A DNA stretch of 64,000 nucleotides from Trypanosoma brucei. Lineage: Eukaryota. The notes below the pieces were generated by a model that did not search any database, had not been told where the DNA came from, and saw only the letters and a list, made by a program, of their open reading frames with translations. Location: positions 832,001 to 896,000 of the forward strand of contig CP000070.1 of assembly GCA_000002445.1 (NCBI GenBank), written 5' to 3'. A program made the position numbers and the translations under genes. Positions 23,890 through 42,847 of the stretch are shown here, piece by piece (the first letter of the stretch is position 1; each line of letters opens with the position of its first letter).

Positions 23890-24294
23890 TCAACCAAATG
23901 TATTTTCCACACCATACGACACGTACAGAAAGCCATCAGGGTCTTTTGCCCTTGCGTAAATGTCTCCCAAGCAGGCACTGTTCGGCGGTAGTTCATTTCC
24001 TATAAACACAAATACGGCTTGACCCTCTTCTAGCAGCAGCCGCTGCCGCAGCGCCATCATGAACTCCATAACGGTAGCAGTTTCAGGGAGAAGAAACTTA
24101 TTACAGTCCAGCTCGCGCTGCACCTGCTGCCGTGTGGAGAAGAGCCTCACATCACGCGGTGTAGAGGCGCTAGCGGCTGAAGTGGGCTCGCAAAGGATGG
24201 GAATGTGTTTGGGGTAGCGCAAGCGCGCGGATTCTGTTTCCTTCGCGCGTTCAGCAAAACTACGTGTGTACTGGTACCGGTAGTGTGAAGGCAT
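23890..24294 (-). CDS. ATG8/ATG12-family ubiquitin-like protein (134 aa) ending in an exposed C-terminal Gly
   Basis: ATG8-fold signature throughout; C-terminus '...DGFLYVSYGVENTFG*'. ATG at 24292-24294 checked. The 151-aa track ORF starts at GTG. Confidence 0.8.
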   Translation of the reverse strand: MPSHYRYQYTRSFAERAKETESARLRYPKHIPILCEPTSAASASTPRDVRLFSTRQQVQRELDCNKFLLPETATVMEFMMALRQRLLLEEGQAVFVFIGNELPPNSACLGDIYARAKDPDGFLYVSYGVENTFG

Positions 24295-25111
24295 AAATGT
24301 AATGACTGTGAAACTGGTACCTCTGCAGCCCCGTAATACAGTCACTGATACTACTATTCACTTGCAATACGAAGCTCACCTTTCTTCCTTCTCCCCTTTG
24401 CCTATAATGACACACACAAAACGCACACGCGGTCCCTTGATATCTAACAACTCCCGCCAACGCCTACAAGGCTCTAATGCTCTTCGACTAGACGGTGTTT
24501 AGGGCAATGAAACGGAGGAAGGGGAACAAGCACAGATTATACCTTGTAGAGAAAGCTGCACAAACATGTTCGTATGGTCTGAAACGATAGGGAGAACAGC
24601 CAAAGCAGCTCCAAAGGGAAGGGTAGCGATGCTATTTTCTTATGCACACGCAAGAACGTGCACATGTAACGCACTCGGGTATACGTCACACAGTTTTTCT
24701 TCCGAAACGACGGGATGACCAAAGAAGAGGAGAAAGACATTCCGTCACGATGACGCCGCTGTCACCTACTTTCAAACCACTCCAAGAATGGGCAAACTAG
24801 GAACCACTACACGAACCTGCTGGTCTCAGCATTTAAAAAAAAAAAAACATCGCAGCGCATCCCCTCCCCGAGTTTCAAAGTAATCCGTGTTGCAGCCGTC
24901 ATATGCTTTCACGTTACCTTCGTATTCACCTATACCTGGTAGCGCACGCAATCGTAAGATCCGTGAAAACACACATACGACACCTTACCAGACACTGCAC
25001 GAGTCAACACAATGGCTTCCTTGTAAGCATCTAAGCACCTAAACGAACGGACATGTATTTATATTTTTTTTTATACCTACAGAACACACAAGTCAACATC
25101 AACTGCTTCAC

Positions 25112-26887: not shown

Positions 26888-29800
26888 TCAATGGTGCGCC
26901 CATGGCCCTCCCAAATGCGTTGTTGGGCAACCGGTTGCGTCGCCCTCGTCCTCATCGTCTTCACCTTCCTCAACAGAGCGCAAAAGCGATATCTCACGCA
27001 AAAGCTCCTTTGCACTCGTGGCAGAAACCTGACAACCACGAATGCGCGAGTCCAGATCCGTCATCAGTCCACCTATGTTGCGATTTAGCTCATCCACCAC
27101 ATCGTCGTGTTGTCTCCCTTTAGACTGTAATTCGACCATAAGTGCCTCTTTTTCACGCTTCAAACGCTCAAGCTGATGGCGCATCGAGCTAATGATATCT
27201 GTCCCACCCACGGCCAGATTGCTTGCAGACGGTACAGTCACCGCTGAGGTGGTGGAATTGCCAGTCTCTCCGAGATGCTCTGACGATGTCCAGGGGAGGG
27301 GAACGGGCATACCACCCTGTAGTTCCTCGATTCTGGCCTCCAGTTGTTGCATGACTGCCTCCACCTCACGCATCTCGTCGTCCTTAGCGTCTTGCAGGTC
27401 AAAGAGTTCCTGTTCACGGGCCTCCAGGGCCATCAACGCCGCCTTCTCCGCTGCTCGGGCTCCTTCAAGGACATTAACAAACTCATCGAGTTTACCAATG
27501 GTGTCAGTGTATTCAAACCCCTTCTCGTCCAACTCAAGCAACAGTGCAGCAATTTTTCTGTTAAGTGCATCAAGATCCTCTTTGTGAGTGATCTCCCGCT
27601 GTTCTAACTCTTCCCTCAGGGCAGCGTTCTCTTCGCTAAGTTTCTTAACCTCCTGTTCAAGTTCACCTACGAGATAAACGCCACTCATTAACTCTTCAAC
27701 CTTTCCACGGGCCACCTCCACGTGCGAACTTCGTGCCTTTTCAAGCATGTTGAACAGTGAGAGAAGCATCTCGTCACGGAACTTTTTGTCCCTATCTTGG
27801 GTGCAACGAAGTTCAAGTAACTCTTCCTCACGGGCAAAAAGCTCACTGCGCACCGTGCACTCAGCCTGACGAGCCTCATCCAATAGTACGACCATCTCCT
27901 CCATATTCTCCAGCATTTCGGTGTGTTCTGTGGCCCGCTCCTCAAGTTCGTCAAGTAAGTCACCTTCACGTTTCGCGCGAATACGGTCACGGTTGAGGAA
28001 CCCAACGACCAATAAGCACTGCAGCGAAGACAAAGAAGAGCGTTCAATAACCAAACGAGACAAGACCTCATCAACGAAAACACCCTGCTCATCAACCATG
28101 ACACCGCAGGCACGCCGCAAGAATGAAGACATCGTCAAATTGCCGCCACCAGCATCGTTAGTCCCAATACTACTGCCCAAAAGCAGCCGCTGCGTTTCCC
28201 TGAATGGGTAATGCTGAAGCCGTTGAGCAATTTCCGAAGGATGAATGCTTGAAGGATGGGTGACATCAAATTCAACCACACGACCACTCGGAGTGAACGT
28301 TACATTACTCACACAATCCCTGTAGACACGACATGCATTAGCAGCATCAACAACAACAGCACAACGTAACTCTTCCGGTTTATTCTTCAGCAACTCATCT
28401 AACCTCTCACCTTGAAGTTGAACACACTGAGAACTTACCATGCAATCTCCCTCCATCGAAGCCATCCACCGAGAATCATGTTTGCGCTCCTCCTCGCCGC
28501 CACGCGAAGGCTCATTCAACGCTTCCTCTAAGTCGTCCAGAGCGTTCGACATCAACACAGAAGGGCGATCATTGTGCGAAGAAGCGTCCACCACATCGAC
28601 ACCACTCCTCAGTTTTTTCAAAGCATCTACAGCTTTACGAAGCCCATCGCTCTGAGATACCAATTCATTGGTCTTGCGCTCATTCACAGCCTGCAGTTCC
28701 ATCACCTGCTCCTCCATATCACGAAGTCGTCTTTGTTGCTTGTCCAACTCATCTACCCTCAGTTCATCAGTGCCCCGCAATTGTTCATTCTGTGTCAGAA
28801 ATTCTTTCAGACGGTCACCAAGTTCCTGAAGTAGTTCGCCCTGAACAACAAGTTCATGAGATTTAATATCAAGTTCCTTCCGCAACTCGTCGTTTTCCGA
28901 AGATATCTCAGAGAGCTTCAGACGCAATTCCTTCACATCAGATAAAAGACATTCGATTTCTTTAGAATTTTCATCATCAACACTACGGAGATCGATATTT
29001 TCCCGCTTCACAAGAATCAACTCATTTTTGATAACACCAATACCATCACCGTCACCAGAAACATCCACATCAGCACTCTTCTCCTTCAAAAGATATTCAC
29101 CATCAGAATCAATTTTCATAGCACCGTCCTTCGCATCCCGAGAAACATCACGATCATCATTACGTAAAGAAAAAAGTTCGTTACTTCGTCTCAGTTCCTC
29201 ATTCTCAGTGCGTAGTTCAGCAAGTTGCTCCTCCATCTCATGAAGTTTCTCATTCTGCACATCAAGTTCACGTGCCTTGTCCCCTTCAGTATTGCGAAGC
29301 TCCTCATTCTCAGCGCGTAGTTCAGCAAGTTGCTCTTCCATCTCATGAAGTTTCTCATTCTGCACATCAAGTTCACGTGCCTTGTCACCATCAGTATTGC
29401 GAAGCTCCTCATTTTCAGCGCGTAGTTCAGCAAGTTGCTCCTCCATCTCATGAAGTTTCTCATTCTGCACATCAAGTTCACGTGCCTTGTCACCATCAGT
29501 ATTGCGAAGCTCCTCATTTTCAGCGCGTAGTTCGGCAAGTTGCTCCTCCATCTCATGAAGTTTCTCATTCTGCACATCAAGTTCACGTGCCTTGTCACCA
29601 TCAGTATTGCGAAGCTCCTCATTTTCAGCGCGTAGTTCAGCAAGTTGCTCCTCCATCTCATGAAGTTTCTCATTCTGCACATCAAGTTCACGTGCCTTGT
29701 CACCATCAGTATTGCGAAGCTCCTCATTTTCAGCGCGTAGTTCAGCAAGTTGCTCCTCCATCTCATGAAGTTTCTCATTCTGCACATCAAGTTCACGTGC

Positions 29801-32800
29801 CTTGTCACCATCAGTATTGCGAAGCTCCTCATTTTCAGCGCGTAGTTCGGCAAGTTGCTCCTCCATCTCATGAAGTTTCTCATTCTGCACATCAAGTTCA
29901 CGTGCCTTGTCACCATCAGTATTGCGAAGCTCCTCATTTTCAGCGCGTAGTTCAGCAAGTTGCTCCTCCATCTCATGAAGTTTCTCATTCTGCACATCAA
30001 GTTCACGTGCCTTGTCACCATCAGTATTGCGAAGCTCCTCATTTTCAGCGCGTAGTTCAGCAAGTTGCTCCTCCATCTCATGAAGTTTCTCATTCTGCAC
30101 ATCAAGTTCACGTGCCTTGTCACCATCAGTATTGCGAAGCTCCTCATTTTCAGCGCGTAGTTCAGCAAGTTGCTCCTCCATCTCATGAAGTTTCTCATTC
30201 TGCACATCAAGTTCACGTGCCTTGTCCCCTTCAGTATTGCGAAGCTCCTCATTTTCAGCGCGTAGTTCAGCAAGTTGCTCCTCCATCTCATGAAGTTTCT
30301 CATTCTGCACATCAAGTTCACGTGCCTTGTCACCATCAGTATTGCGAAGCTCCTCATTTTCAGCGCGTAGTTCAGCAAGTTGCTCCTCCATCTCATGAAG
30401 TTTCTCATTCTGCACATCAAGTTCACGTGCCTTGTCACCATCAGTATTGCGAAGCTCCTCATTTTCAGCGCGTAGTTCAGCAAGTTGCTCTTCCATCTCA
30501 TGAAGTTTCTCATTCTGTACATCAAGTTCACGTGCCTTGTCACCTTCAGTATTGCGAAGCTCCTCATTCTCAGCGCGTAGTTCAGCAAGTTGCTCCTCCA
30601 TCTCATGAAGTTTCTCATTCTGTACATCAAGTTCACGTGCCTTGTCACCATCAGTATTGCGAAGCTCCTCATTCTCAGCGCGTAGTTCAGCAAGTTGCTC
30701 CTCCATCTCATGAAGTTTCTCATTCTGCACATCAAGTTCACGTGCCTTGTCACCATCAGTATTGCGAAGCTCCTCATTTTCAGCGCGTAGTTCAGCAAGT
30801 TGCTCCTCCATCTCATGAAGTTTCTCATTCTGCACATCAAGTTCACGTGCCTTGTCACCATCAGTATTGCGAAGCTCCTCATTCTCAGCGCGTAGTTCAG
30901 CAAGTTGCTCCTCCATCTCATGAAGTTTCTCATTCTGCACATCAAGTTCACGTGCCTTGTCACCATCAGTATTGCGAAGCTCCTCATTCTCAGCGCGTAG
31001 TTCAGCAAGTTGCTCCTCCATCTCATGAAGTTTCTCATTCTGTACATCAAGTTCACGTGCCTTGTCACCATCAGTATTGCGAAGCTCCTCATTCTCAGCG
31101 CGTAGTTCAGCAAGTTGCTCTTCCATCTCATGAAGTTTCTCATTCTGCACATCAAGTTCACGTGCCTTGTCACCATCAGTATTGCGAAGCTCCTCATTCT
31201 CAGCGCGTAGTTCAGCAAGTTGCTCCTCCATCTCATGAAGTTTCTCGTTCTGCACATCAAGTTCACGTGCCTTGTCACCATCAGTATTGCGAAGCTCCTC
31301 ATTTTCAGCGCGTAGTTCAGCAAGTTGCTCCTCCATCTCATGAAGTTTCTCATTCTGCACATCAAGTTCACGTGCCTTGTCACCATCAGTATTGCGAAGC
31401 TCCTCATTCTCAGCGCGTAGTTCAGCAAGTTGCTCCTCCATCTCATGAAGTTTCTCATTCTGCACATCAAGTTCACGTGCCTTGTCCCCTTCAGTATTGC
31501 GAAGCTCCTCATTCTCAGTGCGTAGTCCATTTATCTTCTGTTCAAGTTCTTTTTGTAGGTAGAGAAGTTGCTGATTTCTTACTTCTAGTTCTCTTAATTT
31601 AGCGTGCTGCTCCTCTCGTATTCCTGTATTTTCGGTGCGCACTTCTCGGAGTTGTTCAACTAGTTCTTGGACTCTTCCTGATTGGACGCATAGATCGAGT
31701 GACTTTTCCACTTCGTGTTCGCGTAGCTGTTCGTTTTCTTTTTGTAGTTCGTTGGCATCTTGCTGTAGTTGTCGTAGTTGTGAATTTAGCTCCTCTATTT
31801 GATTTGTTTTACTGTTACAAATTTGCTGGAGATTGCTGTGAGATTCAGATAAAGTTCTCATCTGCCGATGTACATCCTGTATGTATTCGCTCTGCTTTTT
31901 TGCATCTACAGATATAATTTCATTATTTTTACAGAGTTCCTCATTTTCCCTAGCCAGAGTATTTAATTGGTTCTCTACAGCAGTTAGCCGCGCCTGTTGT
32001 GCAGCTAGTTCATTTGTTTTCTCCTCTTGTAATCGGAGAAGATCATCCCTCTCAGACGAAACATCATGCAGTTTTGCGCCAAGTTCACAGAGTTCTTGTT
32101 CTAGAGTATTCAGTTGTTGACGGCCTTCGTCGATTTGCTCCTTCAATAGATCTAGGCCATCCTTAGGTTCATTTAATTTCAACAGCAGCCGCTGCGTTTC
32201 CCTGAATGGGTAATGCTGAAGCCGTTGAGCAATTTCCGAAGGATGAATGCTTGAAGGATGGGTGACATCAAATTCAACCACACGACCACTCGGAGTGAAC
32301 GTTACATTACTCACACAATCCCTGTAGACACGACATGCATTAGCAGCATCAACAACAACAGCACAACGTAACTCTTCCGGTTTATTCTTCAGCAACTCAT
32401 CTAACCTCTCACCTTGAAGTTGAACACACTGAGAACTTACCATGCAATCTCCCTCCATCGAAGCCATCCACCGAGAATCATGTTTCCGCAGCTCATCATT
32501 TTCAGCACGAATCGCCTTCAGACTCTCTTGTAGCAAAGAAATTTTGGACTCAACGTTAGCAATCAGTTCATTAAGAGACTCAATTTCCTTTGCGTTATCA
32601 GATTCGGCAAGACGAAGTTGCTCATTTTCCTCCTTAAGTTGTTGCAAATGTCGCTCCACCTCGCACACATGTTTCTTGAGCAAATCAAGCTCACGGGCTT
32701 TTTCTTCTTCAGCACGGTGGAGCTCCTCGCTTTCTTTACTCAACTTTTTGATGTGTTGATCCTTTGCCGAACAGAGTTCATTTTGCGCATCAAGCTCAAT

Positions 32801-35800
32801 CACCTTCTCTCTGACACACTCCCTCAATGCATCCACTTCCTCTTGCATCTTCTTCACCTTTTCCTCCATTTCCTCCAGATGACGACTCCGCAAGTCAAGT
32901 TCACGTGCCTTTTCGGCCTCCGAATCCCGAAGCCCACCGTTTTCAGTGCGAAGTTCAGCAAGTTGCTCTTCCATCTCATTAAGTTTCTCATTCTGCACAT
33001 CAAGTTCACGTGCTTTCGCCTCATCAGAGCCGCGAAGTTGCTCATTTTGAACTAAAAATTCTTGAAGCTTACCGTCCAAGTCACCTAGTAAACCTTCCTG
33101 AACAACAAGATCATTCGACTTACACTCCAAAGTTCTCTTGAGATCACAATTTTCTTCCACTAAAGCATCTAATTGGTTCTCTACAGCAGTTAGCCGCGCC
33201 TGTTGTGCAGCTAGTTCATTTGTTTTCTCCTCTTGTAATCGGAGAAGATCATCCCTCTCAGACGAAACATCATGCAGTTTTGCGCCAAGTTCACAGAGTT
33301 CTTGTTCTAGAGTATTCAGTTGTTGACGGCCTTCGTCGATTTGCTCCTTCAATAGATCTAGGCCATCCTTAGGTTCATTTAATTTCAACAGCAGCCGCTG
33401 CGTTTCCCTGAATGGGTAATGCTGAAGCCGTTGAGCAATTTCCGAAGGATGAATGCTTGAAGGATGGGTGACATCAAATTCAACCACACGACCACTCGGA
33501 GTGAACGTTACATTACTCACACAATCCCTGTAGACACGACATGCATTAGCAGCATCAACAACAACAGCACAACGTAACTCTTCCGGTTTATTCTTCAGCA
33601 ACTCATCTAACCTCTCACCTTGAAGTTGAACACACTGAGAACTTACCATGCAATCTCCCTCCATCGAAGCCATCCACCGAGAATCATGTTTCCGCAGCTC
33701 ATCATTTTCAGCACGAATCGCCTTCAGACTCTCTTGTAGCAAAGAAATTTTGGACTCAACGTTAACAATCAGTTCATTAAGAGACTCAATTTCCTTTGCG
33801 TTATCAAAATCAGTAAGACGAAGTTGCTCATTTTCCTCCTTAAGTTGTTGCAAATGCCGTTCCATCTCATGAAGTTTCTCATTCTGTACATCAAGTTCAC
33901 GTGCCTTGTCACCATCAGTATTGCGAAGCTCCTCATTCTCAGCGCGTAGTTCAGCAAGTTGCTCCTCCATCTCATGAAGTTTCTCATTCTGCACATCAAG
34001 TTCACGTGCCTTGTCACCATCAGTATTGCGAAGCTCCTCATTTTCCTCCTTAAGTTGTTGCAAATGCCGTTCCATCTCATGAAGTTTCTCATTCTGTACA
34101 TCAAGTTCACGTGCCTTGTCACCATCAGTATTGCGAAGCTCCTCATTCTCAGCGCGTAGTTCAGCAAGTTGCTCCTCCATCTCATGAAGTTTCTCATTCT
34201 GCACATCAAGTTCACGTGCCTTGTCACCATCAGTATTGCGAAGCTCCTCATTCTCAGCGCGTAGTTCAGCAAGTTGCTCTTCCATCTCATGAAGTTTCTC
34301 ATTCTGCACATCAAGTTCACGTGCCTTGTCCCCTTCAGTATTGCGAAGCTCCTCATTCTCAGCGCGTAGTTCAGCAAGTTGCTCCTCCATCTCATGAAGT
34401 TTCTCATTCTGCACATCAAGTTCACGTGCCTTGTCACCATCAGTATTGCGAAGCTCCTCATTCTCAGCGCGTAGTTCAGCAAGTTGCTCTTCCATCTCAT
34501 GAAGTTTCTCATTCTGCACATCAAGTTCACGTGCCTTGTCCCCTTCAGTATTGCGAAGCTCCTCATTCTCAGCGCGTAGTTCAGCAAGTTGCTCCTCCAT
34601 CTCATGAAGTTTCTCATTCTGCACATCAAGTTCACGTGCCTTGTCACCATCAGTATTGCGAAGCTCCTCATTCTCAGCGCGTAGTTCAGCAAGTTGCTCC
34701 TCCATCTCATGAAGTTTCTCATTCTGTACATCAAGTTCACGTGCCTTGTCACCATCAGTATTGCGAAGCTCCTCATTCTCAGCGCGTAGTTCAGCAAGTT
34801 GCTCTTCCATCTCATGAAGTTTCTCATTCTGCACATCAAGTTCACGTGCCTTGTCACCATCAGTATTGCGAAGCTCCTCATTCTCAGCGCGTAGTTCAGC
34901 AAGTTGCTCTTCCATCTCATGAAGTTTCTCATTCTGCACATCAAGTTCACGTGCCTTGTCACCATCAGTATTGCGAAGCTCCTCATTCTCAGCGCGTAGT
35001 TCAGCAAGTTGCTCTTCCATCTCATGAAGTTTCTCATTCTGTACATCAAGTTCACGTGCCTTGTCACCATCAGTATTGCGAAGCTCCTCATTTTCAGCGC
35101 GTAGTTCAGCAAGTTGCTCCTCCATCTCATGAAGTTTCTCATTCTGCACATCAAGTTCACGTGCCTTGTCACCTTCAGTATTGCGAAGCTCCTCATTTTC
35201 AGCGCGTAGTTCAGCAAGTTGCTCTTCCATCTCATGAAGTTTCTCATTCTGTACATCAAGTTCACGTGCCTTGTCACCATCAGTATTGCGAAGCTCCTCA
35301 TTTTCAGCGCGTAGTTCGGCAAGTTGCTCCTCCATCTCATGAAGTTTCTCATTCTGTACATCAAGTTCACGTGCCTTGTCACCATCAGTATTGCGAAGCT
35401 CCTCATTTTCAGCGCGTAGTTCGGCAAGTTGCTCCTCCATCTCATGAAGTTTCTCATTCTGTACATCAAGTTCACGTGCCTTGTCACCATCAGTATTGCG
35501 AAGCTCCTCATTTTCAGCGCGTAGTTCAGCAAGTTGCTCCTCCATCTCATGAAGTTTCTCATTCTGCACATCAAGTTCACGTGCCTTGTCCCCTTCAGTA
35601 TTGCGAAGCTCCTCATTCTCAGCGCGTAGTTCAGCAAGTTGCTCCTCCATCTCATGAAGTTTCTCATTCTGCACATCAAGTTCACGTGCCTTGTCCCCTT
35701 CAGTATTGCGAAGCTCCTCATTCTCAGTGCGTAGTTCAGCAAGTTGCTCCTCCATCTCATGAAGTTTCTCATTCTGCACATCAAGTTCACGTGCCTTGTC

Positions 35801-38800
35801 CCCTTCAGTATTGCGAAGCTCCTCATTTTCAGCGCGTAGTTCAGCAAGTTGCTCCTCCATCTCATGAAGTTTCTCATTCTGTACATCAAGTTCACGTGCC
35901 TTGTCACCATCAGTATTGCGAAGCTCCTCATTCTCAGCGCGTAGTTCAGCAAGTTGCTCTTCCATCTCATGAAGTTTCTCATTCTGCACATCAAGTTCAC
36001 GTGCCTTGTCCCCTTCAGTATTGCGAAGCTCCTCATTCTCTGCGCGTAGTTCAGCAAGTTGCTCCTCCATCTCATGAAGTTTCTCATTCTGTACATCAAG
36101 TTCACGTGCCTTGTCACCATCAGTATTGCGAAGCTCCTCATTCTCAGCGCGTAGTTCAGCAAGTTGCTCCTCCATCTCATGAAGTTTCTCATTCTGTACA
36201 TCAAGTTCACGTGCCTTGTCACCATCAGTATTGCGAAGCTCCTCATTCTCAGCGCGTAGTTCAGCAAGTTGCTCTTCCATCTCATGAAGTTTCTCATTCT
36301 GCACATCAAGTTCACGTGCCTTGTCCCCTTCAGTATTGCGAAGCTCCTCATTCTCAGCGCGTAGTTCGGCAAGTTGCTCCTCCATCTCATGAAGTTTCTC
36401 ATTCTGCACATCAAGTTCACGTGCCTTGTCCCCTTCAGTATTGCGAAGCTCCTCATTCTCAGCGCGTAGTTCAGCAAGTTGCTCCTCCATCTCATGAAGT
36501 TTCTCATTCTGCACATCAAGTTCACGTGCCTTGTCCCCTTCAGTATTGCGAAGCTCCTCATTTTCAGCGCGTAGTTCAGCAAGTTGTTCCTCCATCTCAT
36601 GAAGTTTCTCATTCTGCACATCAAGTTCACGTGCCTTGTCCCCTTCAGTATTGCGAAGCTCCTCATTTTCAGCGCGTAGTTCGGCAAGTTGCTCCTCCAT
36701 CTCATGAAGTTTCTCATTCTGCACATCAAGTTCACGTGCCTTGTCCCCTTCAGTATTGCGAAGCTCCTCATTCTCAGCGCGTAGTTCAGCAAGTTGCTCC
36801 TCCATCTCATGAAGTTTCTCATTCTGCACATCAAGTTCACGTGCCTTGTCACCATCAGTATTGCGAAGCTCCTCATTCTCAGCGCGTAGTTCAGCAAGTT
36901 GCTCCTCCATCTCATGAAGTTTCTCATTCTGCACATCAAGTTCACGTGCCTTGTCACCATCAGTATTGCGAAGCTCCTCATTTTCAGCGCGTAGTTCAGC
37001 AAGTTGCTCTTCCATCTCATGAACGTATCCCTGCAGCTGGACGTCACCTGATGCTGCTTCCCTAATGCGATGAAGCTCCTCATTTTCAGCGCGTAGTTCA
37101 GCAAGTTGCTCTTCCATCTCATGAACGTATCCCTGCAGCTCGACGTCACCTGATGCTGCTTCCCTAATGCGATGAAGCTCCTCATTTTCAGCGCGTAGTT
37201 CAGCAAGTTGCTCTTCCATCTCATGAACGTATCCCTGCAGCTCGACGTCACCTGATGCTGCTTCCCTAATGCGATGAAGCTCCTCATTTTCAGCGCGTAG
37301 TTCAGCAAGTTGCTCTTCCATCTCATGAACGTATCCCTGCAGCTCGACGTCACCTGAAGCTGCTTCCCTAATGCAATGAAGCTCTTCTTTTTCTATTAGT
37401 TGTCCTATTATCTGTTGATGTGGTCGCATGGGGCTGTGTTGTCCTTGTTTGTCTTCTTTTATTCGTACTGCTTTTCTTTCTTCGGGGGACTCTTCGCTTA
37501 ATGGTTCTTCGGTTTTTTGTTGCCTCTGACGATGTGCTCTTATGTTACATATATTATCTTTGTCGTGATCACGTAACGATTCGTCTTGTTCATGTAGCTT
37601 GCTGTGCTCTGTTGGGGTTTCTTTTCTGTACGTTTCCCTTGTCTGACATTCTTCTGAACTTTCGACGGATGTGTTGGTGCGGGTTGTTTCTTCTTCGCTA
37701 GTTTCTTTCTCTAAAAGATATCCGTCGTCTTTTGCGTCCTCGGTTTTTGTTTGAATAACTTCTTCTTTGTTTTCTTTTGTCCGGCGTAGTAAAGTGTTTT
37801 CGTCATTCAGTATGCGTAGCCTCTCCTCCAATGCTTTTATGTGCCCTCGTAGTTCCTCAATCTGAGCAATTTCCTCCCTGGTGGACATGAATAAATCACC
37901 ATCGTCCAGGGTTTCGTGCAAACTGTGAGAATAAGAAGGACTGTCTTGGTGATCTCCTTCCCTCCGGCCTCTATTGCTGTGTTGGTGAGGGTCACTTTCT
38001 CCTTGTTTCCCGATCGTTTGCATTAGTTGCAACACTGAAAGAAACTCTGCCCTCCTGACCCGTTGTGCGAGATCGTATTGTGACACGGAAGGAGGGTGAG
38101 AGACGGTGAACACGACAGATGTGTAGTACTCATTGAAACAAATATCGTCAATATCACTGATATCTACCTGGCAAGCACGAGCGGCATCCACAAGAACGGC
38201 TTTGTTGATATCTTCTCTATTGTTGATTATGTGCGTCCTCCATTCACGGAGATCGATATTCTTTTTGAGTGTGGATGTGACCCTCTCCCCATGTTGGTCT
38301 TTATGTCCCTCGATGATGTAGCCCTCTCTGCTCCCACCGCGAGTTGATGCATGCAGCGGAGACTCGTGCTCACTTACCCCCTGGTCCGTAGCGTCGTATC
38401 CTCTAATCTGATCACCGCTGCTTTCCCTTTGTAGTTCCTCTATTTCTTTGCGGTAGTGCTCCAGCTGACGAAGATCTTCGTCATGGCGCTGCTTAAGTTC
38501 GCTGATCTTGATTATCCCTTCTTGGCGCGTCTTCTCTGCCAGTTCACGCTGCTCGTTCAGGAGCTGCTGTAGCTCGTTGTTCACCCGCTGCGCTTCTTCA
38601 ATTTGTTGTAAGAGGTCACTGTTCTCTTCATGGGCAATATCAGTGGAATTTTGCCGTGGCTGAGAGTCCACTGCTTCGTCCTTCGGCTGCAAACCACCAC
38701 AGCTGAACCCCCCTTCCAACGCATGATGAAGAGCAACGTGGAGCAGCGGGCGGTGAATGGTAGCGCACCAGTCAATGAACTGCACATCCTTGTCCGTAAT

Positions 38801-39892
38801 GCTAACGACATCACCATTATCATCCGAAATACTCAAAACTGTCAGAATACAAGAACGGGAAACGTTGGTTGACGGCCTATCAGCAGAGGCAACGAACGTA
38901 AGGTACTGTTCGCTCTCATCTTCGCAAGCCCCATCGTCAACACTGCTTCCCTCTTCAGCACTGCAGTGCAACTTTGTTTCAATGCGCTTGATTTGCGTGT
39001 TCAGTTCCTTTATGTGAGCTATGTGGCTGGTAATATTCGCGTGCAGCTCGTCTGTGGACCGCTGAGAGTTTACGATCTCACATATGACGTGAAACATGCC
39101 CATCTGGGCAATGATCCAATCAAAAAGAAGAGGTAGCAGGGTGTCAGTACCGGACCTCGACCCGCCGGTCGTTTTCCCACTTAGTTGATTGCAGTAGAGG
39201 TGGACATCGGACATGTAGGCATCGTTGATGTCGTTGTAAAGTTCTACGCTCATATCAGTCATTGGGTCAAATTCCAGCAACCGCTGTATGTAGGTCGGAT
39301 CCCTCACAGCGGCCCGCAGGTCCTCCCACGACCATGAGGAATCAACAACCAAGTCCTCATTTAGAAGTGCGACAGTTGCCTCTAGCGCAAGCCGAAGTTG
39401 CACCGATGGAACCCGTGTGTTGAACACTTCGTGAAGTCGCACCTCCTCTACAGCCGCAATAGCACGACGAACGGCATCGGAAGACTCCTTTGCACGCCCC
39501 ATGGCCGCCTCATTGTTACGCCGAACAGCCGCCATCTCCTCGCGCAACGCCATAACACTCATGTGGCGGTGCCTCATCTCCTCCATTTTCCTCTCTTTGT
39601 CGATCCTTAGTGTGTTGAGAACAGCGGGATCGTGGCTGTTCTGTGGGAGCAACACACGCACCGTAGCGGAACGTGAATCCAGCTGCAACACGCGCCCCAG
39701 AAACCATCGCCGCTTGGAAGCTTTGCCTAATAATTCATAGGCCACAAGAGACCCCACGCACAAGGGGTCTTTCACACTATTAAGTAACGACTTCACACGG
39801 CTGTGGGTCGGACTAGCGCCTTTGTCCAACGCATGCAGAGAATCTGCTGTTTGTGACCACTCCTCATCGAAATGGCCTTCGGCGGTTGCCAT
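26888..39892 (-). CDS. FAZ10: Giant (4334 aa, ~0.5 MDa) coiled-coil repeat protein; candidate FAZ10-type flagellum-attachment-zone protein
   Basis: Single uninterrupted minus-frame ORF. The track start is GTG; the first ATG is at 39890-39892 ('MATAEGHFDEEW'), checked. ~750-aa non-repetitive N-terminal region, then heptad-rich coiled coil built from 35-aa repeats 'EELRNT(D/E)GDKARELDVQNEKLHEMEEQLAELRAEN'. The FAZ10 assignment rests on size and on recalled neighbouring genes, not on a search. Confidence 0.85.
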   Translation of the reverse strand: MATAEGHFDEEWSQTADSLHALDKGASPTHSRVKSLLNSVKDPLCVGSLVAYELLGKASKRRWFLGRVLQLDSRSATVRVLLPQNSHDPAVLNTLRIDKERKMEEMRHRHMSVMALREEMAAVRRNNEAAMGRAKESSDAVRRAIAAVEEVRLHEVFNTRVPSVQLRLALEATVALLNEDLVVDSSWSWEDLRAAVRDPTYIQRLLEFDPMTDMSVELYNDINDAYMSDVHLYCNQLSGKTTGGSRSGTDTLLPLLFDWIIAQMGMFHVICEIVNSQRSTDELHANITSHIAHIKELNTQIKRIETKLHCSAEEGSSVDDGACEDESEQYLTFVASADRPSTNVSRSCILTVLSISDDNGDVVSITDKDVQFIDWCATIHRPLLHVALHHALEGGFSCGGLQPKDEAVDSQPRQNSTDIAHEENSDLLQQIEEAQRVNNELQQLLNEQRELAEKTRQEGIIKISELKQRHDEDLRQLEHYRKEIEELQRESSGDQIRGYDATDQGVSEHESPLHASTRGGSREGYIIEGHKDQHGERVTSTLKKNIDLREWRTHIINNREDINKAVLVDAARACQVDISDIDDICFNEYYTSVVFTVSHPPSVSQYDLAQRVRRAEFLSVLQLMQTIGKQGESDPHQHSNRGRREGDHQDSPSYSHSLHETLDDGDLFMSTREEIAQIEELRGHIKALEERLRILNDENTLLRRTKENKEEVIQTKTEDAKDDGYLLEKETSEEETTRTNTSVESSEECQTRETYRKETPTEHSKLHEQDESLRDHDKDNICNIRAHRQRQQKTEEPLSEESPEERKAVRIKEDKQGQHSPMRPHQQIIGQLIEKEELHCIREAASGDVELQGYVHEMEEQLAELRAENEELHRIREAASGDVELQGYVHEMEEQLAELRAENEELHRIREAASGDVELQGYVHEMEEQLAELRAENEELHRIREAASGDVQLQGYVHEMEEQLAELRAENEELRNTDGDKARELDVQNEKLHEMEEQLAELRAENEELRNTDGDKARELDVQNEKLHEMEEQLAELRAENEELRNTEGDKARELDVQNEKLHEMEEQLAELRAENEELRNTEGDKARELDVQNEKLHEMEEQLAELRAENEELRNTEGDKARELDVQNEKLHEMEEQLAELRAENEELRNTEGDKARELDVQNEKLHEMEEQLAELRAENEELRNTEGDKARELDVQNEKLHEMEEQLAELRAENEELRNTDGDKARELDVQNEKLHEMEEQLAELRAENEELRNTDGDKARELDVQNEKLHEMEEQLAELRAENEELRNTEGDKARELDVQNEKLHEMEEQLAELRAENEELRNTDGDKARELDVQNEKLHEMEEQLAELRAENEELRNTEGDKARELDVQNEKLHEMEEQLAELRTENEELRNTEGDKARELDVQNEKLHEMEEQLAELRAENEELRNTEGDKARELDVQNEKLHEMEEQLAELRAENEELRNTDGDKARELDVQNEKLHEMEEQLAELRAENEELRNTDGDKARELDVQNEKLHEMEEQLAELRAENEELRNTDGDKARELDVQNEKLHEMEEQLAELRAENEELRNTEGDKARELDVQNEKLHEMEEQLAELRAENEELRNTDGDKARELDVQNEKLHEMEEQLAELRAENEELRNTDGDKARELDVQNEKLHEMEEQLAELRAENEELRNTDGDKARELDVQNEKLHEMEEQLAELRAENEELRNTDGDKARELDVQNEKLHEMEEQLAELRAENEELRNTDGDKARELDVQNEKLHEMEEQLAELRAENEELRNTEGDKARELDVQNEKLHEMEEQLAELRAENEELRNTDGDKARELDVQNEKLHEMEEQLAELRAENEELRNTEGDKARELDVQNEKLHEMEEQLAELRAENEELRNTDGDKARELDVQNEKLHEMEEQLAELRAENEELRNTDGDKARELDVQNEKLHEMERHLQQLKEENEELRNTDGDKARELDVQNEKLHEMEEQLAELRAENEELRNTDGDKARELDVQNEKLHEMERHLQQLKEENEQLRLTDFDNAKEIESLNELIVNVESKISLLQESLKAIRAENDELRKHDSRWMASMEGDCMVSSQCVQLQGERLDELLKNKPEELRCAVVVDAANACRVYRDCVSNVTFTPSGRVVEFDVTHPSSIHPSEIAQRLQHYPFRETQRLLLKLNEPKDGLDLLKEQIDEGRQQLNTLEQELCELGAKLHDVSSERDDLLRLQEEKTNELAAQQARLTAVENQLDALVEENCDLKRTLECKSNDLVVQEGLLGDLDGKLQEFLVQNEQLRGSDEAKARELDVQNEKLNEMEEQLAELRTENGGLRDSEAEKARELDLRSRHLEEMEEKVKKMQEEVDALRECVREKVIELDAQNELCSAKDQHIKKLSKESEELHRAEEEKARELDLLKKHVCEVERHLQQLKEENEQLRLAESDNAKEIESLNELIANVESKISLLQESLKAIRAENDELRKHDSRWMASMEGDCMVSSQCVQLQGERLDELLKNKPEELRCAVVVDAANACRVYRDCVSNVTFTPSGRVVEFDVTHPSSIHPSEIAQRLQHYPFRETQRLLLKLNEPKDGLDLLKEQIDEGRQQLNTLEQELCELGAKLHDVSSERDDLLRLQEEKTNELAAQQARLTAVENQLNTLARENEELCKNNEIISVDAKKQSEYIQDVHRQMRTLSESHSNLQQICNSKTNQIEELNSQLRQLQQDANELQKENEQLREHEVEKSLDLCVQSGRVQELVEQLREVRTENTGIREEQHAKLRELEVRNQQLLYLQKELEQKINGLRTENEELRNTEGDKARELDVQNEKLHEMEEQLAELRAENEELRNTDGDKARELDVQNEKLHEMEEQLAELRAENEELRNTDGDKARELDVQNEKLHEMEEQLAELRAENEELRNTDGDKARELDVQNEKLHEMEEQLAELRAENEELRNTDGDKARELDVQNEKLHEMEEQLAELRAENEELRNTDGDKARELDVQNEKLHEMEEQLAELRAENEELRNTDGDKARELDVQNEKLHEMEEQLAELRAENEELRNTDGDKARELDVQNEKLHEMEEQLAELRAENEELRNTDGDKARELDVQNEKLHEMEEQLAELRAENEELRNTEGDKARELDVQNEKLHEMEEQLAELRAENEELRNTDGDKARELDVQNEKLHEMEEQLAELRAENEELRNTDGDKARELDVQNEKLHEMEEQLAELRAENEELRNTEGDKARELDVQNEKLHEMEEQLAELRAENEELRNTDGDKARELDVQNEKLHEMEEQLAELRAENEELRNTDGDKARELDVQNEKLHEMEEQLAELRAENEELRNTDGDKARELDVQNEKLHEMEEQLAELRAENEELRNTDGDKARELDVQNEKLHEMEEQLAELRAENEELRNTDGDKARELDVQNEKLHEMEEQLAELRAENEELRNTDGDKARELDVQNEKLHEMEEQLAELRAENEELRNTDGDKARELDVQNEKLHEMEEQLAELRAENEELRNTDGDKARELDVQNEKLHEMEEQLAELRAENEELRNTEGDKARELDVQNEKLHEMEEQLAELRTENEELRRSNELFSLRNDDRDVSRDAKDGAMKIDSDGEYLLKEKSADVDVSGDGDGIGVIKNELILVKRENIDLRSVDDENSKEIECLLSDVKELRLKLSEISSENDELRKELDIKSHELVVQGELLQELGDRLKEFLTQNEQLRGTDELRVDELDKQQRRLRDMEEQVMELQAVNERKTNELVSQSDGLRKAVDALKKLRSGVDVVDASSHNDRPSVLMSNALDDLEEALNEPSRGGEEERKHDSRWMASMEGDCMVSSQCVQLQGERLDELLKNKPEELRCAVVVDAANACRVYRDCVSNVTFTPSGRVVEFDVTHPSSIHPSEIAQRLQHYPFRETQRLLLGSSIGTNDAGGGNLTMSSFLRRACGVMVDEQGVFVDEVLSRLVIERSSLSSLQCLLVVGFLNRDRIRAKREGDLLDELEERATEHTEMLENMEEMVVLLDEARQAECTVRSELFAREEELLELRCTQDRDKKFRDEMLLSLFNMLEKARSSHVEVARGKVEELMSGVYLVGELEQEVKKLSEENAALREELEQREITHKEDLDALNRKIAALLLELDEKGFEYTDTIGKLDEFVNVLEGARAAEKAALMALEAREQELFDLQDAKDDEMREVEAVMQQLEARIEELQGGMPVPLPWTSSEHLGETGNSTTSAVTVPSASNLAVGGTDIISSMRHQLERLKREKEALMVELQSKGRQHDDVVDELNRNIGGLMTDLDSRIRGCQVSATSAKELLREISLLRSVEEGEDDEDEGDATGCPTTHLGGPWAHH
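29195..31525 (-). repeat. Array A: ~22 tandem copies of a 105-bp coding repeat (35-aa unit) inside the giant gene
   Basis: Period measured from 'tcagtattgcgaagctcctcatt' recurring every 105 bp. Copies differ only at a few mostly synonymous positions (ctgcacatc/ctgtacatc, ctcctcc/ctcttcc) and a D/E site. Confidence 0.9.
31960..32650 (-). repeat. ~690-bp intragenic module, duplicated at 33165-33855 (period ~1205 bp); a 300-bp partial third copy lies at 28183-28483
   Basis: 'cagcagccgctgcgtttccctgaatgggtaatgctgaagccgttgagc' appears at 28183, 32187 and 33393, identical over ~300 bp. Encodes 'KHDSRWMASMEGD...VVVDAANACRVYRDCVSNVTFTPSGRVVEFDVTHPSSIHPSEIAQRLQHYPFRETQRLL'. Confidence 0.85.
33856..37020 (-). 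repeat. Array B: ~30 tandem copies of the same 105-bp repeat
   Basis: Same unit as array A, separated from it by ~2.3 kb of unique or duplicated module sequence. Confidence 0.9.
37020..37385 (-). repeat. ~3.5 copies of a diverged 102-bp (34-aa) repeat at the protein-N-terminal side of array B
   Basis: 'gcgatgaagctcctcattttcagcgcgtagttcagcaagttgctcttccatctcatgaacgtatccctgcagctcgacgtcacctgatgctgcttccctaat' recurs with period 102. Protein unit 'EEQLAELRAENEELHRIREAASGDVELQGYVHEM'. Confidence 0.85.
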
Positions 39893-41065: not shown

Positions 41066-42847
41066 TCACATCTCGGATGGATGGTGCGTGACGAACACGT
41101 GCAGTGGGTCAAAGTCCTCGAGCAAGGGATTAAACCCACTTCGCGTAGTGAAGATAGATGTTTTATCACCCCCGAATGTTTTCCAAAACTGAGGGTGCGA
41201 CATGCTTGAAACCTCTTTATATGCACCGCATATATTGCGGTACACCGCCTTAAGAAGGTCGAAATCTGTAGGAAAGCAAATGTCGATCATTCCTGCGTTG
41301 CCATGCAGGGAATCCGCAGGACGACGGAGGTAAATGTCCTTGGCAATACGCGTCTTGCTTTGCAGCACCGGTCCATTCACGCCTGGGAGGCCTTGACGCA
41401 CCGACCCCCAATCTACAAGGAAAAGATGATGACGGGGAAAATACGTTGCACAGGTCTCAAGGAAGAGCATCGAGACTGTTGGCAGCCACAAGGTGCGGAA
41501 CGGGCTGTGCATCCACATCATCTTTGTAATAACTACCCGCAGAGGGTCGTACATGTTTGGCTCGATGCTCGTAAAGGGAGGTGGATCGATGTTGTCACGT
41601 CCACCGGTGAGGCACAGTACCTTGAGGCTATGAAACGACTCCTCCTGCATCCAGCGTGCATAGCGCAAGTAGCGAAGTATGACCGGATCCTTCACTGAAA
41701 AATACCTCTCGTGAGCAGTGGAAAGATTGTCATGTTGCTGGAAGTGAAACCATTGCTCATTACATACTCCATCGGCACTCAGCACGACACAATCGTGCGG
41801 CATACCAGAGAGTAACTCCACGCCGAACACGACGCAGCGCCTACGCTCCACTTCCCTCCAGTTCAAAATGGAGATGTTGTGAATTTTGACATGGTGGTAG
41901 TGCATAATAAGACGGTTACGAAGCACCTGCACGAGCTGAGGGTTTATTTCCACCACATGATACTCACACTGTTCGTACACAGAAGGGAAGTGCTCGCTCA
42001 GGTAGTCCAGAACACTAACAGCAAGTGCCCCTGAGCCCGCCCCAATATCGTACACAACCAGCGGGTCCCGAGGATCGAACTTCGCTCTCATCATGGTTAC
42101 CAGGTACTCTGCAATCACCCAACCGTAGTGTGGTTGAAAGAGTTGGGTGGGTGTGACACATGAGGGTGTAGAATCGTGAATCTTCCCCACGTAGCGCTCA
42201 TAGTCCTGCTGGTTGCGCAGGCTACCAAACGGAATGGGGTCAAAGTAGCCGGTGGTCATGAGTTGGCGGTATTTGCGATACAGTTTTGGGTAGTATCCCC
42301 ATTTCTTATGATACAAGGCAAAATGAATGAAGTCTCGCATAATCAACTCCGTTCCAAGTGACTCGTGGTCGGCGACAGCCCCACCTTCAAAAACAAGAAG
42401 GTCCTCGAATAGTTTTTTTTGTCGCGTCACTCGTCGCTCCTCCTCCTCAGCTGCAAGCTCGTGAAGGCGTGATTCTGACACAGCCTCATTACACGATGAC
42501 AATATGTAAGGCATCCCACTACCTACCGATGGAAGCACCGGGGTCGAGCTCATAGCAGCAGCATGGGGCCCCACGACGGCACCTGATGCAGTAGTCATAC
42601 TGCAATCAACAATGTTGCCCTGCGAGACACAAGAAGGGGCGCCATCGCAGCTATTATTACCATCATTTCCCTGATTGCTGTAATGCGGGGGCAGGAGAGC
42701 GGCGCTGCCGTCGCCTGGCGTACTGAAGGGACTGCGGCTTCCGGCAGCACCAGCAGCGGGAAAGGAATACCATCGTCTCCCCGGGGATGATGGGATGGAG
42801 CGGGGCGAAACCCGAAGGGTACGCCCACCGAGTGGGAAGTACCTCAT
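41066..42847 (-). CDS. Putative SAM-dependent methyltransferase, NDUFAF7/MidA (Methyltransf_28/DUF185)-like, with N-terminal presequence-like extension (593 aa)
   Basis: ATG at 42845-42847 checked. 'VVYDIGAGSGALAVSVLDYL' (DxGxGxG SAM-binding loop) followed by 'YHVVEINPQLVQVLRNRL', resembling the NDUFAF7 'hlVEiSp.L...Q' motif. N-terminus 'MRYFPLGGRTLRVSPRSIPSSPGRRW' is Arg/Ser-rich. Confidence 0.65.
   Translation of the reverse strand: MRYFPLGGRTLRVSPRSIPSSPGRRWYSFPAAGAAGSRSPFSTPGDGSAALLPPHYSNQGNDGNNSCDGAPSCVSQGNIVDCSMTTASGAVVGPHAAAMSSTPVLPSVGSGMPYILSSCNEAVSESRLHELAAEEEERRVTRQKKLFEDLLVFEGGAVADHESLGTELIMRDFIHFALYHKKWGYYPKLYRKYRQLMTTGYFDPIPFGSLRNQQDYERYVGKIHDSTPSCVTPTQLFQPHYGWVIAEYLVTMMRAKFDPRDPLVVYDIGAGSGALAVSVLDYLSEHFPSVYEQCEYHVVEINPQLVQVLRNRLIMHYHHVKIHNISILNWREVERRRCVVFGVELLSGMPHDCVVLSADGVCNEQWFHFQQHDNLSTAHERYFSVKDPVILRYLRYARWMQEESFHSLKVLCLTGGRDNIDPPPFTSIEPNMYDPLRVVITKMMWMHSPFRTLWLPTVSMLFLETCATYFPRHHLFLVDWGSVRQGLPGVNGPVLQSKTRIAKDIYLRRPADSLHGNAGMIDICFPTDFDLLKAVYRNICGAYKEVSSMSHPQFWKTFGGDKTSIFTTRSGFNPLLEDFDPLHVFVTHHPSEM

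What the first reader, a model, noticed from the sequence alone, without database searches (positions are those of the whole stretch)
26888..39892. 13-kb gene encoding a 4334-aa modular coiled-coil giant (candidate FAZ10)
Read in protein order, the architecture is: ~750-aa non-repetitive N-terminal region (39892 to ~37700); 102-bp variant repeats (37385-37020); 105-bp array B (~30 copies); duplicated 'domain + coiled-coil' modules (33855-31960); array A (~22 copies); a third domain copy (28483-28183) and a unique coiled-coil C-terminus. More than half of the ORF is perfect heptad-compatible repeat. If it is the FAZ10 orthologue, the repeat copy number sets the rod length of a flagellum-attachment-zone scaffold.
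Basis: partly seen in the sequence, partly recalled or inferred. Interest (0 to 1): 0.55.

Follow-up and report, generated by a model that had tools for sequence, protein, structure and literature searches.

The report
Trypanosoma brucei FAZ10 giant gene
This 13-kb gene is the already characterised Trypanosoma brucei FAZ10, a giant repetitive coiled-coil protein that helps hold the parasite's flagellum to its cell body, so the finding is correct but not new.

Summary
The ORF is real and lies where stated: window 26888-39892, minus strand, 13,005 bp, 4334 aa, 502.65 kDa. It is T. brucei brucei TREU927 FAZ10 (Tb927.7.3330) itself, not merely an orthologue.

- **Identity:** length and mass equal the published values. 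All 17 residue numbers quoted in a 2026 FAZ10 preprint match this translation.
- **Context:** a neighbouring ORF is 100% identical to TREU927 XP_845954.1. The next gene downstream is an ATG8-family gene, where Tb927.7.3320 (ATG8.3) should be.
- **Architecture:** There are two 105-bp arrays (about 30 and 22 units), a 240-aa module duplicated 1206 bp apart, and three virtually identical FAZ1_cons domains.
- **Corrections:** the non-repetitive N-terminus is 838 aa and holds a fourth, diverged FAZ1_cons copy. The 105-bp arrays make up 44.6% of the ORF, not more than half.

One side result: residues ~45-320 form a small beta domain followed by a dynein-type stalk and microtubule-binding-domain hairpin, shared with FAZ1. 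No AAA+ motor is present and the head is acidic. Others have partly noted this resemblance.

Verdict: already known, low interest.

The parts
26888..39892 (-). FAZ10 coding sequence (Tb927.7.3330), 4334 codons plus stop
   Evidence: ORF list and translation. Length, mass and residue numbering match the published FAZ10.
39656..39751 (-). aa 48-79: small SH3/Tudor-like beta domain at the base of the N-terminal hairpin
   Evidence: The AlphaFold2 model has strands at model residues 13-44. The motif VAYE..W.WSLG is conserved across FAZ10 and FAZ1 relatives.
39458..39631 (-). aa 88-145: outward helix of the hairpin, equivalent to dynein stalk CC1
   Evidence: Model helix 53-110, pLDDT >90. It aligns to dynein stalk CC1 in profile and fold searches.
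39155..39457 (-). aa 146-246: globular helical head with the fold of the dynein microtubule-binding domain; acidic (pI 4.4, net charge -9)
   Evidence: phmmer and profile hits to dynein MTBD structures. Foldseek match to 6rzb_C: TM 0.74 normalised to the target, rmsd 3.5 A. Charge computed.
38948..39154 (-). aa 247-315: return helix of the hairpin, equivalent to dynein stalk CC2
   Evidence: Model helix 212-280; dynein stalk alignments.
38018..38281 (-). aa 538-625: diverged fourth copy of the FAZ1_cons domain (PF23398)
   Evidence: Pfam E=1.7e-17, 63.5 bits against a cutoff of 27.5.
37022..37378 (-). aa 839-957: 34-aa (102-bp) variant repeats, which lead into array B
   Evidence: Pattern search finds four units, at aa 839, 873, 907 and 941.
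33872..37021 (-). aa 958-2007: array B, 30 near-identical 35-aa (105-bp) units
   Evidence: TRF 33861-37329, period 105. Unit census.
33149..33868 (-). aa 2009-2248: duplicated module, copy 1 (degenerate repeat, then FAZ1_cons at 33688-33386, then start of the central coiled coil)
   Evidence: Self-comparison at an offset of 402 aa gives 96% aa and 97.6% nt identity. Direct repeat with 1206-bp spacing. Pfam FAZ1_cons 80.1 bits.
32663..33148 (-). aa 2249-2410: unique part of the central coiled coil, containing degenerate copies of the 35-aa unit
   Evidence: Translation. This segment lies inside the D2070-P2576 construct that was shown experimentally to form a helical dimer.
31943..32662 (-). 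aa 2411-2650: duplicated module, copy 2 (FAZ1_cons at 32482-32180)
29196..31526 (-). Array A, 22 units of 105 bp
   Evidence: TRF: 22.2 copies, 98% matches. Unit census.
28178..28486 (-). aa 3803-3905: third identical FAZ1_cons copy
   Evidence: 302/303 nt identical to the central copies.
26891..28177 (-). aa 3906-4334: unique C-terminal region, mostly helical or coiled coil, acidic tail. The last 250 aa are the published antibody epitope.
   Evidence: Translation. Pfam gives only sub-threshold coiled-coil hits. Motifs are shared with the C-termini of Leptomonas and Leishmania orthologues. Antibody described.

Best explanation
**What it is (shown).** This is the FAZ10 gene (Tb927.7.3330) of Trypanosoma brucei brucei TREU927, chromosome 7. 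It encodes a 4334-aa, very acidic, modular protein.
- An N-terminal unit has a small beta domain carrying an antiparallel helical hairpin. The hairpin is tipped by a globular head with the fold of the dynein stalk and microtubule-binding domain.
- Four FAZ1_cons globular domains are present.
- Between them lie long helical rods. Two of these are arrays of a 35-aa (five-heptad) unit.

**What is published by others.**
- FAZ10 sits in the intracellular domain of the flagellum attachment zone, at the intermembrane staples.
- Its depletion loosens attachment of the new flagellum and misplaces nuclei, kinetoplasts and the cleavage furrow.
- The central region is a parallel coiled-coil dimer with monomeric globular domains at both ends.

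**What I infer.**
- The whole molecule is a parallel dimer: a segmented, semi-flexible rod of roughly 0.4 um if fully extended.
- The FAZ1_cons domains act as nodes for partner binding.
- The N-terminal hairpin is a passive docking strut, not a motor.
- Repeat number sets the length of two rod segments. It is kept uniform by concerted evolution.
For: **Identity.**
- ORF length 13,005 bp, 4334 aa, 502.65 kDa, against the published 13,005 bp, 4334 aa, 502 kDa.
- 17 of 17 quoted residue positions match.
- The flanking ORF 21860-22930 is identical to TREU927 XP_845954.1, on a 2.2-Mb contig.
- An ATG8-family ORF lies next door, where Tb927.7.3320 ATG8.3 is expected.
- The N-terminus retrieves Trypanosoma orthologues at 35-42% identity, and L. 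major LmjF.22.1320. The L. mexicana counterpart of the latter is the published Leishmania FAZ10.

**Domains.** FAZ1_cons is found four times, above Pfam's cutoff. This agrees with the review table, which lists a shared domain in FAZ1, FAZ8 and FAZ10.

**N-terminal hairpin.**
- A profile of FAZ10-type sequences alone hits dynein MTBDs at E=1e-4.
- A wider family profile hits them at E=2e-28.
- The AlphaFold2 model has pLDDT 82.5.
- The top 41 Foldseek PDB hits are all dynein stalk/MTBD, best E=4.5e-8.

**Rod.**
- The 35-aa unit has one continuous heptad register with 6 of 10 a/d positions hydrophobic.
- Degenerate copies of the unit lie inside the experimentally dimeric central region.
Against: - Nothing contradicts the identity.
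- For the mechanism, the repeat arrays are predicted about 90% disordered by IUPred in the preprint.
- Each unit contains a Gly in NTDGDK and carries a net charge of -7. The arrays may therefore not be regular coiled coils.
- The head of the hairpin is acidic (pI 4.4). Dictyostelium dynein MTBD and more distant family members are basic (pI 8.2-9.7). This argues against classical tubulin binding.
- The protein migrates at ~2 MDa, so the assembled copy number may be too low.
- An extended 0.4-um rod does not obviously fit FAZ sticks of about 50 x 16 nm spaced about 55 nm apart.
Confidence: 0.93

Rival explanations
1. The gene model is an assembly compromise. The two arrays are collapsed, or partly an artefact of assembling near-identical 105-bp units. 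The real FAZ10 gene would then be much longer, up to about four times, or differ in structure between alleles.
For: - FAZ10 runs as a doublet at ~2 MDa against 502 kDa predicted, and the authors themselves suggest under-assembled repeats.
- Units are 94-100% identical at the nucleotide level, and are as similar between arrays as within them.
- A short-read contig product (P0011) ends at aa 822, just before the repeats start at aa 839.
Against: - The reading frame is intact across both arrays and all junctions.
- The central region is reported to be constant in length across T. brucei strains.
- A net charge of about -350 in the arrays is expected to slow SDS-PAGE migration. This could explain part of the size excess.
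- No read-level data were available here.
Confidence: 0.45
2. FAZ10 carries a dynein motor domain at its N-terminus and actively pulls the FAZ filament along subpellicular microtubules. This is the 'alternative pull' model of Trepout 2020.
For: - Phyre2 reported a 'dynein motor domain' in the FAZ10 N-terminal region.
- Genuine dynein similarity is confirmed here by sequence profile and by fold.
Against: - The similarity covers only the stalk and MTBD. For example, it spans residues 1949-2182 of the 3367-residue Dictyostelium motor construct.
- No AAA+, linker or other dynein motor family is found anywhere in the protein by Pfam.
- The hairpin helices are about 58 and 69 residues long. From my own knowledge, dynein stalk helices are considerably longer.
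- The head is acidic, unlike microtubule-binding dynein heads.
Confidence: 0.03
3. The 35-aa arrays are not coiled coils. They would be highly charged single helices or disordered acidic spacers, acting as entropic springs or spacers rather than as a dimeric rod.
For: - IUPred disorder of 87-97% in the repeat regions.
- One Gly per unit, net charge -7 per unit, and polar residues (N, D, K, Q) at 4 of 10 core positions.
Against: - COILS predicts coiled coil for both repeat blocks.
- 35 = 5 x 7 keeps one register through the whole array.
- Degenerate versions of the same unit sit within the central segment that is experimentally helical and dimeric.
Confidence: 0.2
4. The ORF is a different FAZ1-family paralogue, such as FAZ1 or FAZ8, rather than FAZ10.
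For: It shares the N-terminal module and FAZ1_cons domains with FAZ1-type proteins. These include a T. rangeli protein named FAZ1 and a T. congolense chromosome-4 protein.
Against: - FAZ1-type sequences are only 17-21% identical over the N-terminal module, against 36-43% for FAZ10-type orthologues.
- Size, repeat unit, residue numbering and chromosome-7 neighbours all match FAZ10.
Confidence: 0.01

Closest known systems
T. brucei FAZ10 (Tb927.7.3330; Moreira et al. 2017, PMC5358337)
   Same: Everything that could be compared matches: ORF length, protein length and mass, two blocks of 35-aa repeats around a central region, residue numbering and chromosome context.
   Different: Nothing differs. 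This is the same gene. I count 51-52 units, depending on how degenerate edge units are scored.
FAZ1 (Tb927.4.3740) and its orthologues, including the Leishmania protein deposited as 'mL100' in PDB 7AIH
   Same: The architecture is the same: an N-terminal beta domain plus dynein-type stalk and head, FAZ1_cons domains, a tandem-repeat coiled coil, and conserved C-terminal helices.
   Different: FAZ1 is smaller, about 193 kDa. It uses a different repeat unit: 14 aa in the T. congolense FAZ1-type protein. It is only about 20% identical in the shared module.
Leishmania FAZ10 (LmxM.22.1320 / LmjF.22.1320)
   Same: It is orthologous in the N-terminal module, the FAZ1_cons domains and the C-terminal motifs.
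   Different: It is 2046 aa, with unrelated acidic repeats. [quoted passage not shown]
Dynein heavy chain stalk and microtubule-binding domain
   Same: It has an antiparallel coiled-coil hairpin tipped by a six-helix head. This is supported by profile E-values down to 2e-28 and by Foldseek probability 1.00.
   Different: There is no AAA+ ring, linker or tail. The stalk helices are about 58 and 69 residues, shorter than I recall for dynein. The base is closed by a small beta domain. The head is acidic instead of basic.
Other giant repetitive FAZ proteins (ClpGM6, FLAM3)
   Same: They are very large, repeat-rich FAZ components. Their apparent mass on gels exceeds the annotated mass.
   Different: Their domains are unrelated (calpain-like, CLU) and they lie in the flagellar-side FAZ domain.

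Membership tests
FAZ10 (Tb927.7.3330) | 13,005-bp ORF encoding 4334 aa and about 502 kDa | tested here: met
   against the published values.
FAZ10 (Tb927.7.3330) | Published residue identities at numbered positions (D2070, P2576, L2178, L2181, K2182, Q2184, K2223, T2224, E2247, K2252, N2371-L2373, D2378-I2381) | tested here: met
   17 of 17 match.
FAZ10 (Tb927.7.3330) | About 52 near-identical 35-aa repeats in two coiled-coil blocks separated by a central region | tested here: met
   30 plus 21 near-identical units, plus degenerate edge units.
FAZ10 (Tb927.7.3330) | Position on T. brucei chromosome 7 next to Tb927.7.3320 (ATG8.3) | tested here: met
   The ATG8-family ORF at 23890-24345 is the next gene downstream. 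ORF 21860-22930 is identical to TREU927 XP_845954.1.
FAZ10 (Tb927.7.3330) | Localisation to the FAZ intracellular domain, with flagellum detachment and furrow misplacement on depletion | not testable with these tools
   Taken from the literature only.
FAZ1_cons domain proteins (Pfam PF23398; formerly Pfam-B 506 in FAZ1, FAZ8 and FAZ10) | At least one domain scoring above the Pfam gathering score of 27.5 bits | tested here: met
   63.5 bits (aa 538-625) and 80.1 bits (central copy). Four copies in total.
Dynein heavy chain | Antiparallel stalk with a microtubule-binding head | tested here: met
Dynein heavy chain | Ring of six AAA+ modules with a linker (the motor) | tested here: not met
   No AAA+ or dynein motor Pfam family is found in any part of the protein. 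The similarity is confined to stalk residues of dynein.
Dynein heavy chain | Basic tubulin-facing head surface and microtubule binding | tested here: inconclusive
   Whole-head charge is -9 (pI 4.4), against +2.8 (pI 8.9) for Dictyostelium. Surface residues and binding were not tested.
Parallel dimeric coiled-coil rod | Continuous heptad register with a hydrophobic a/d core | tested here: inconclusive
   One register gives 6 of 10 hydrophobic core positions per unit. My crude heptad score flags 60% of the protein. No dedicated coiled-coil predictor was available.
Parallel dimeric coiled-coil rod | Dimerisation in solution | not testable with these tools
   Reported for the central region D2070-P2576 by SEC-MALS and CD.

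The most novel reading that the evidence does not exclude
The N-terminal module shared by FAZ10 and FAZ1 may be a dynein stalk-and-head hairpin detached from any motor. It is mounted on a small beta domain, and in these two families its head has turned acidic. On this reading it no longer binds the microtubule lattice in the dynein manner. It would have been repurposed as a static docking strut for another FAZ partner. More basic, dynein-like versions persist in other kinetoplastid paralogues.

The resemblance itself has partly been noticed. Phyre2 called it a 'dynein motor domain' in 2020. UniRef names an Angomonas FAZ1-type protein 'Dynein heavy chain coiled coil stalk domain-containing'. 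The motor-less, acidic-head reading is the new part.
Probability: 0.45. Interest if true: 0.4.

Novelty: already known. Interest (0 to 1): 0.15.

Why it matters
As a scan finding it matters little. It re-identifies a named, functionally characterised gene of a reference genome.

Two points remain useful to specialists.

- **Copy number is unresolved.** The gap between the 502-kDa model and the ~2-MDa band is unexplained. It bears directly on any argument that repeat number sets a structural length in the FAZ.
- **The 'dynein motor' is not a motor.** The published idea that FAZ10 and FAZ1 carry dynein motors that pull the FAZ along microtubules does not survive inspection. Only a stalk and head are present, and the head is acidic. 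This redirects the question to what that hairpin docks onto.

Tried and rejected
- **Word-indexed protein search** with the N-terminal 411 aa found nothing at E<=0.001. Exact look-up of the full protein also failed. The giant is simply not held intact in that collection. The exhaustive representative search did find relatives.
[quoted passage not shown] No enzymatic or motor domain was found.
- **FAZ1_cons fold.** The AlphaFold2 model is confident (pLDDT 85). Foldseek against the PDB gave no significant match: best E=0.14, TM about 0.4. Its function stays unknown.
- **AlphaFold-database fold search** for other stand-alone stalk proteins could not be run, because the library was unavailable.
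- **tRNA scan** of the window found none.
- **Literature searches** for an explicit description of a microtubule-binding domain in FAZ1 or FAZ10 found only Trepout 2020. A search for 'mL100' found nothing relevant.
- **Rejected readings:** another FAZ1-family paralogue; two genes; a dynein motor.
Full report
**Observation**

The window carries a single uninterrupted minus-strand reading frame from 39916 (GTG) to 26888. From the first ATG at 39892 it is 13,005 bp including the stop. It encodes 4334 aa of 502.65 kDa with pI 4.56. Nearly all long ORFs in the window lie on the same strand, as expected for a trypanosomatid polycistronic unit.

Tandem Repeats Finder reports two arrays of a 105-bp unit. 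One is 29196-31526, with 22.2 copies and 98% matches. The other is 33861-37329, with 33.1 copies and 96% matches.

Read in register, array B has 30 near-identical 35-aa units and one degenerate unit. Array A has 21 plus one. At the protein level the units differ almost only by D or E at position 21. Nucleotide identity averages 97.6%, and it is the same between the two arrays as within them. Four 34-aa variant units precede array B.

A 240-aa module occurs twice, 1206 bp apart, at 97.6% nucleotide identity. It consists of a degenerate repeat, a globular domain and the start of a coiled coil. The globular domain occurs a third time near the C-terminus. The three copies are 303/303 and 302/303 nt identical.

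- The unique N-terminus is 838 aa.
- It contains a fourth, diverged copy of the domain.
- The 105-bp arrays make up 44.6% of the ORF rather than more than half.

**Identity**

Moreira et al. 2017 describe T. brucei FAZ10 (Tb927.7.3330) as a 13,005-bp ORF on chromosome 7. It predicts a 502-kDa protein whose last residue is 4334, with 52 near-identical 35-aa repeats in two coiled-coil blocks around a central region (PMC5358337). The ORF here matches on every count.

A 2026 preprint on the FAZ10 central region quotes 17 residue identities with their numbers, from D2070 to P2576. All 17 are found at those positions in this translation.

The context agrees:
- The ORF at 21860-22930 is identical to XP_845954.1 of T. 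brucei brucei TREU927, on a 2.2-Mb contig.
- The ORF at 41066-42847 clusters with the TREU927 protein XP_845957.1.
- The next gene downstream of the giant ORF, at 23890-24345, is an ATG8-family gene. Tb927.7.3320 is ATG8.3 (PMC5349162).

An exhaustive HMMER search with residues 1-411 found a 100% identical fragment. It also found orthologues at 35-42% identity from T. theileri, T. conorhini and T. cruzi. More distant relatives came from Lotmaria, Leptomonas and L. major LmjF.22.1320. The L. mexicana counterpart of that last gene, LmxM.22.1320, is the published Leishmania FAZ10.

This is FAZ10 itself.

**Domains**

Pfam places the FAZ1_cons domain (PF23398) at aa 538-625 and in the three identical copies (aa 2069-2169, 2471-2571, 3805-3905), all well above the curated cutoff. 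The 2016 FAZ review already lists one shared domain for FAZ1, FAZ8 and FAZ10.

I modelled the domain with an alignment of 12 family members. The model is confident (pLDDT 85): three strands packed against helices. This agrees with the preprint's description. It has no significant structural neighbour in the PDB. Its role is unknown. The preprint found it monomeric and not needed for dimerisation.

**N-terminal module**

The 2017 paper saw 'no recognizable motifs' in the N-terminus. Here the evidence runs as follows:
- A single-sequence search of PDB sequences gave a cluster of weak hits to dynein heavy-chain stalks and microtubule-binding domains. It also gave a strong hit to chain BG of 7AIH.
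- A profile of the nine FAZ10-type sequences alone hits yeast and Dictyostelium dynein MTBD structures at E=1e-4. Nothing unrelated scores above them.
- A profile that also includes FAZ1-type and more distant relatives reaches E=2e-28. That alignment runs through CC1, the head and CC2.
- An AlphaFold2 model of aa 36-343 has pLDDT 82.5. It shows a small beta domain, a 58-residue helix, a globular helical head and a 69-residue return helix.
- Its 41 best Foldseek matches in the PDB are all dynein stalk or MTBD structures. The best E-value is 4.5e-8. Against the isolated mouse MTBD the TM-score is 0.74 normalised to the target, with rmsd 3.5 A.

So residues ~45-320 are a dynein-type stalk-and-head hairpin seated on a beta domain. 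The same module heads FAZ1-type proteins. These include a T. rangeli protein named FAZ1 and a T. congolense chromosome-4 protein with 14-aa repeats.

This is not entirely new. [quoted passage not shown] UniRef names an Angomonas FAZ1-type protein 'Dynein heavy chain coiled coil stalk domain-containing protein'.

My results narrow that claim in two ways:
- The similarity covers only the stalk and head, and Pfam finds no AAA+ or other motor family anywhere in the protein. There is no motor.
- The head is acidic in all FAZ10-type and nearly all FAZ1-type sequences (pI 4.3-5.2, net -3 to -9; the one exception is Phytomonas P0031, pI 9.3). The Dictyostelium dynein head and four more distant family members with canonical dynein motifs are basic (pI 8.2-9.7).

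That is evidence, though not proof, against dynein-style binding to the acidic tubulin surface.

**How it most likely works**

*Shown by others.*
- FAZ10 is a cytoskeletal protein of the FAZ intracellular domain. It has a periodic, staple-like distribution.
- Its loss widens the gap between the FAZ and the paraflagellar rod, detaches the new flagellum, and misplaces organelles and the cleavage furrow.
- The central region D2070-P2576 is a helical, parallel coiled-coil dimer about 42-51 nm long with a globular domain at each end.

*Shown here.*
- The 35-aa unit keeps one heptad register through an array, with 6 of 10 core positions hydrophobic.
- Degenerate copies of the unit lie inside the experimentally dimeric segment.

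*Inferred.*
- The full molecule is a parallel dimer of rod segments separated by FAZ1_cons nodes.
- At 0.1485 nm per residue, a general coiled-coil figure, array A contributes about 114 nm and the 34/35-aa block about 176 nm. The whole rod region is then about 0.4 um.
- That is far longer than the sticks of about 50 x 16 nm spaced about 55 nm apart seen by cryo-STET. The molecule must therefore fold back, or run along the FAZ across several staples.
- 'Copy number sets rod length' is thus plausible for the molecule. No cellular dimension has yet been tied to it.

*Caveats.*
- IUPred calls the arrays disordered.
- Each unit has a Gly and a net charge of -7.

**Assembly question**

FAZ10 migrates as a doublet near 2 MDa, and its discoverers suspected under-assembled repeats. 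The near-identity of units within and between arrays makes collapse possible. So does the way a short-read contig product stops at aa 822, just before the repeats. The extreme acidity of the arrays, about -350 net charge, should also slow migration on SDS gels. I could not test this without reads.

**Verdict**

The gene is already known and experimentally characterised, so interest as a discovery is low.

The refinement worth keeping is this: the 'dynein' part of FAZ10 and FAZ1 is a motor-less stalk-and-head hairpin with an acidic head.

Noticed in passing
PDB 7aih_BG; relatives P0026 and P0046 (no window coordinates): The chain deposited as mitoribosomal protein 'mL100' in the Leishmania large-subunit structures 7AIH, 7AM2 and 7ANE is a FAZ1-family protein. 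It has the same N-terminal beta domain plus stalk and head, and a C-terminal FAZ1_cons domain. UniRef calls it 'Flagellar attachment zone protein'. Either a FAZ1 paralogue really sits on the mitoribosome, or the assignment deserves a second look.
   Followed up: partly
window 4329-5522 (-) and 6888-7907 (-): Two tandem paralogous ORFs of 397 and 339 aa lie at a chromosome-internal site. Both give a weak match to the trypanosome VSG A-type domain (Pfam Trypan_glycop, E about 2e-10).
   Followed up: no
window ~2019-4329: The WD40 ORF at 172-2019 is on the plus strand, while nearly all other long ORFs are on the minus strand. This interval therefore looks like a convergent strand-switch region. 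No tRNA gene is present anywhere in the window.
   Followed up: no
window 23890-24345 (-): An ATG8-family ORF (Pfam E=1.3e-24) lies immediately downstream of FAZ10. Its position corresponds to Tb927.7.3320, the atypical ATG8.3.
   Followed up: yes
window 33386-33688, 32180-32482 and 28178-28480: The three FAZ1_cons copies are 303/303 and 302/303 nt identical, although they lie 1.2 kb and 4 kb apart. The 105-bp units are as similar between the two arrays as within them. Both point to ongoing gene conversion inside the gene.
   Followed up: partly
relatives P0028, P0032, P0034 and P0036 (P0036 is from T. congolense IL3000): Shorter proteins of about 600-660 aa carry the same beta domain plus stalk and head, but with canonical dynein MTBD motifs and a basic head (pI 8.2-9.7). 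They include a trypanosome paralogue and unnamed environmental sequences. They look like motor-less proteins that may still bind microtubules.
   Followed up: partly
window 41066-42847 (-): The ORF from the first ATG is 593 aa. That length matches the T. b. gambiense and T. equiperdum models, whereas the TREU927 record for the same gene (XP_845957.1, a NDUFAF7-like methyltransferase) is 510 aa. The start codon is therefore annotated differently between strains.
   Followed up: no
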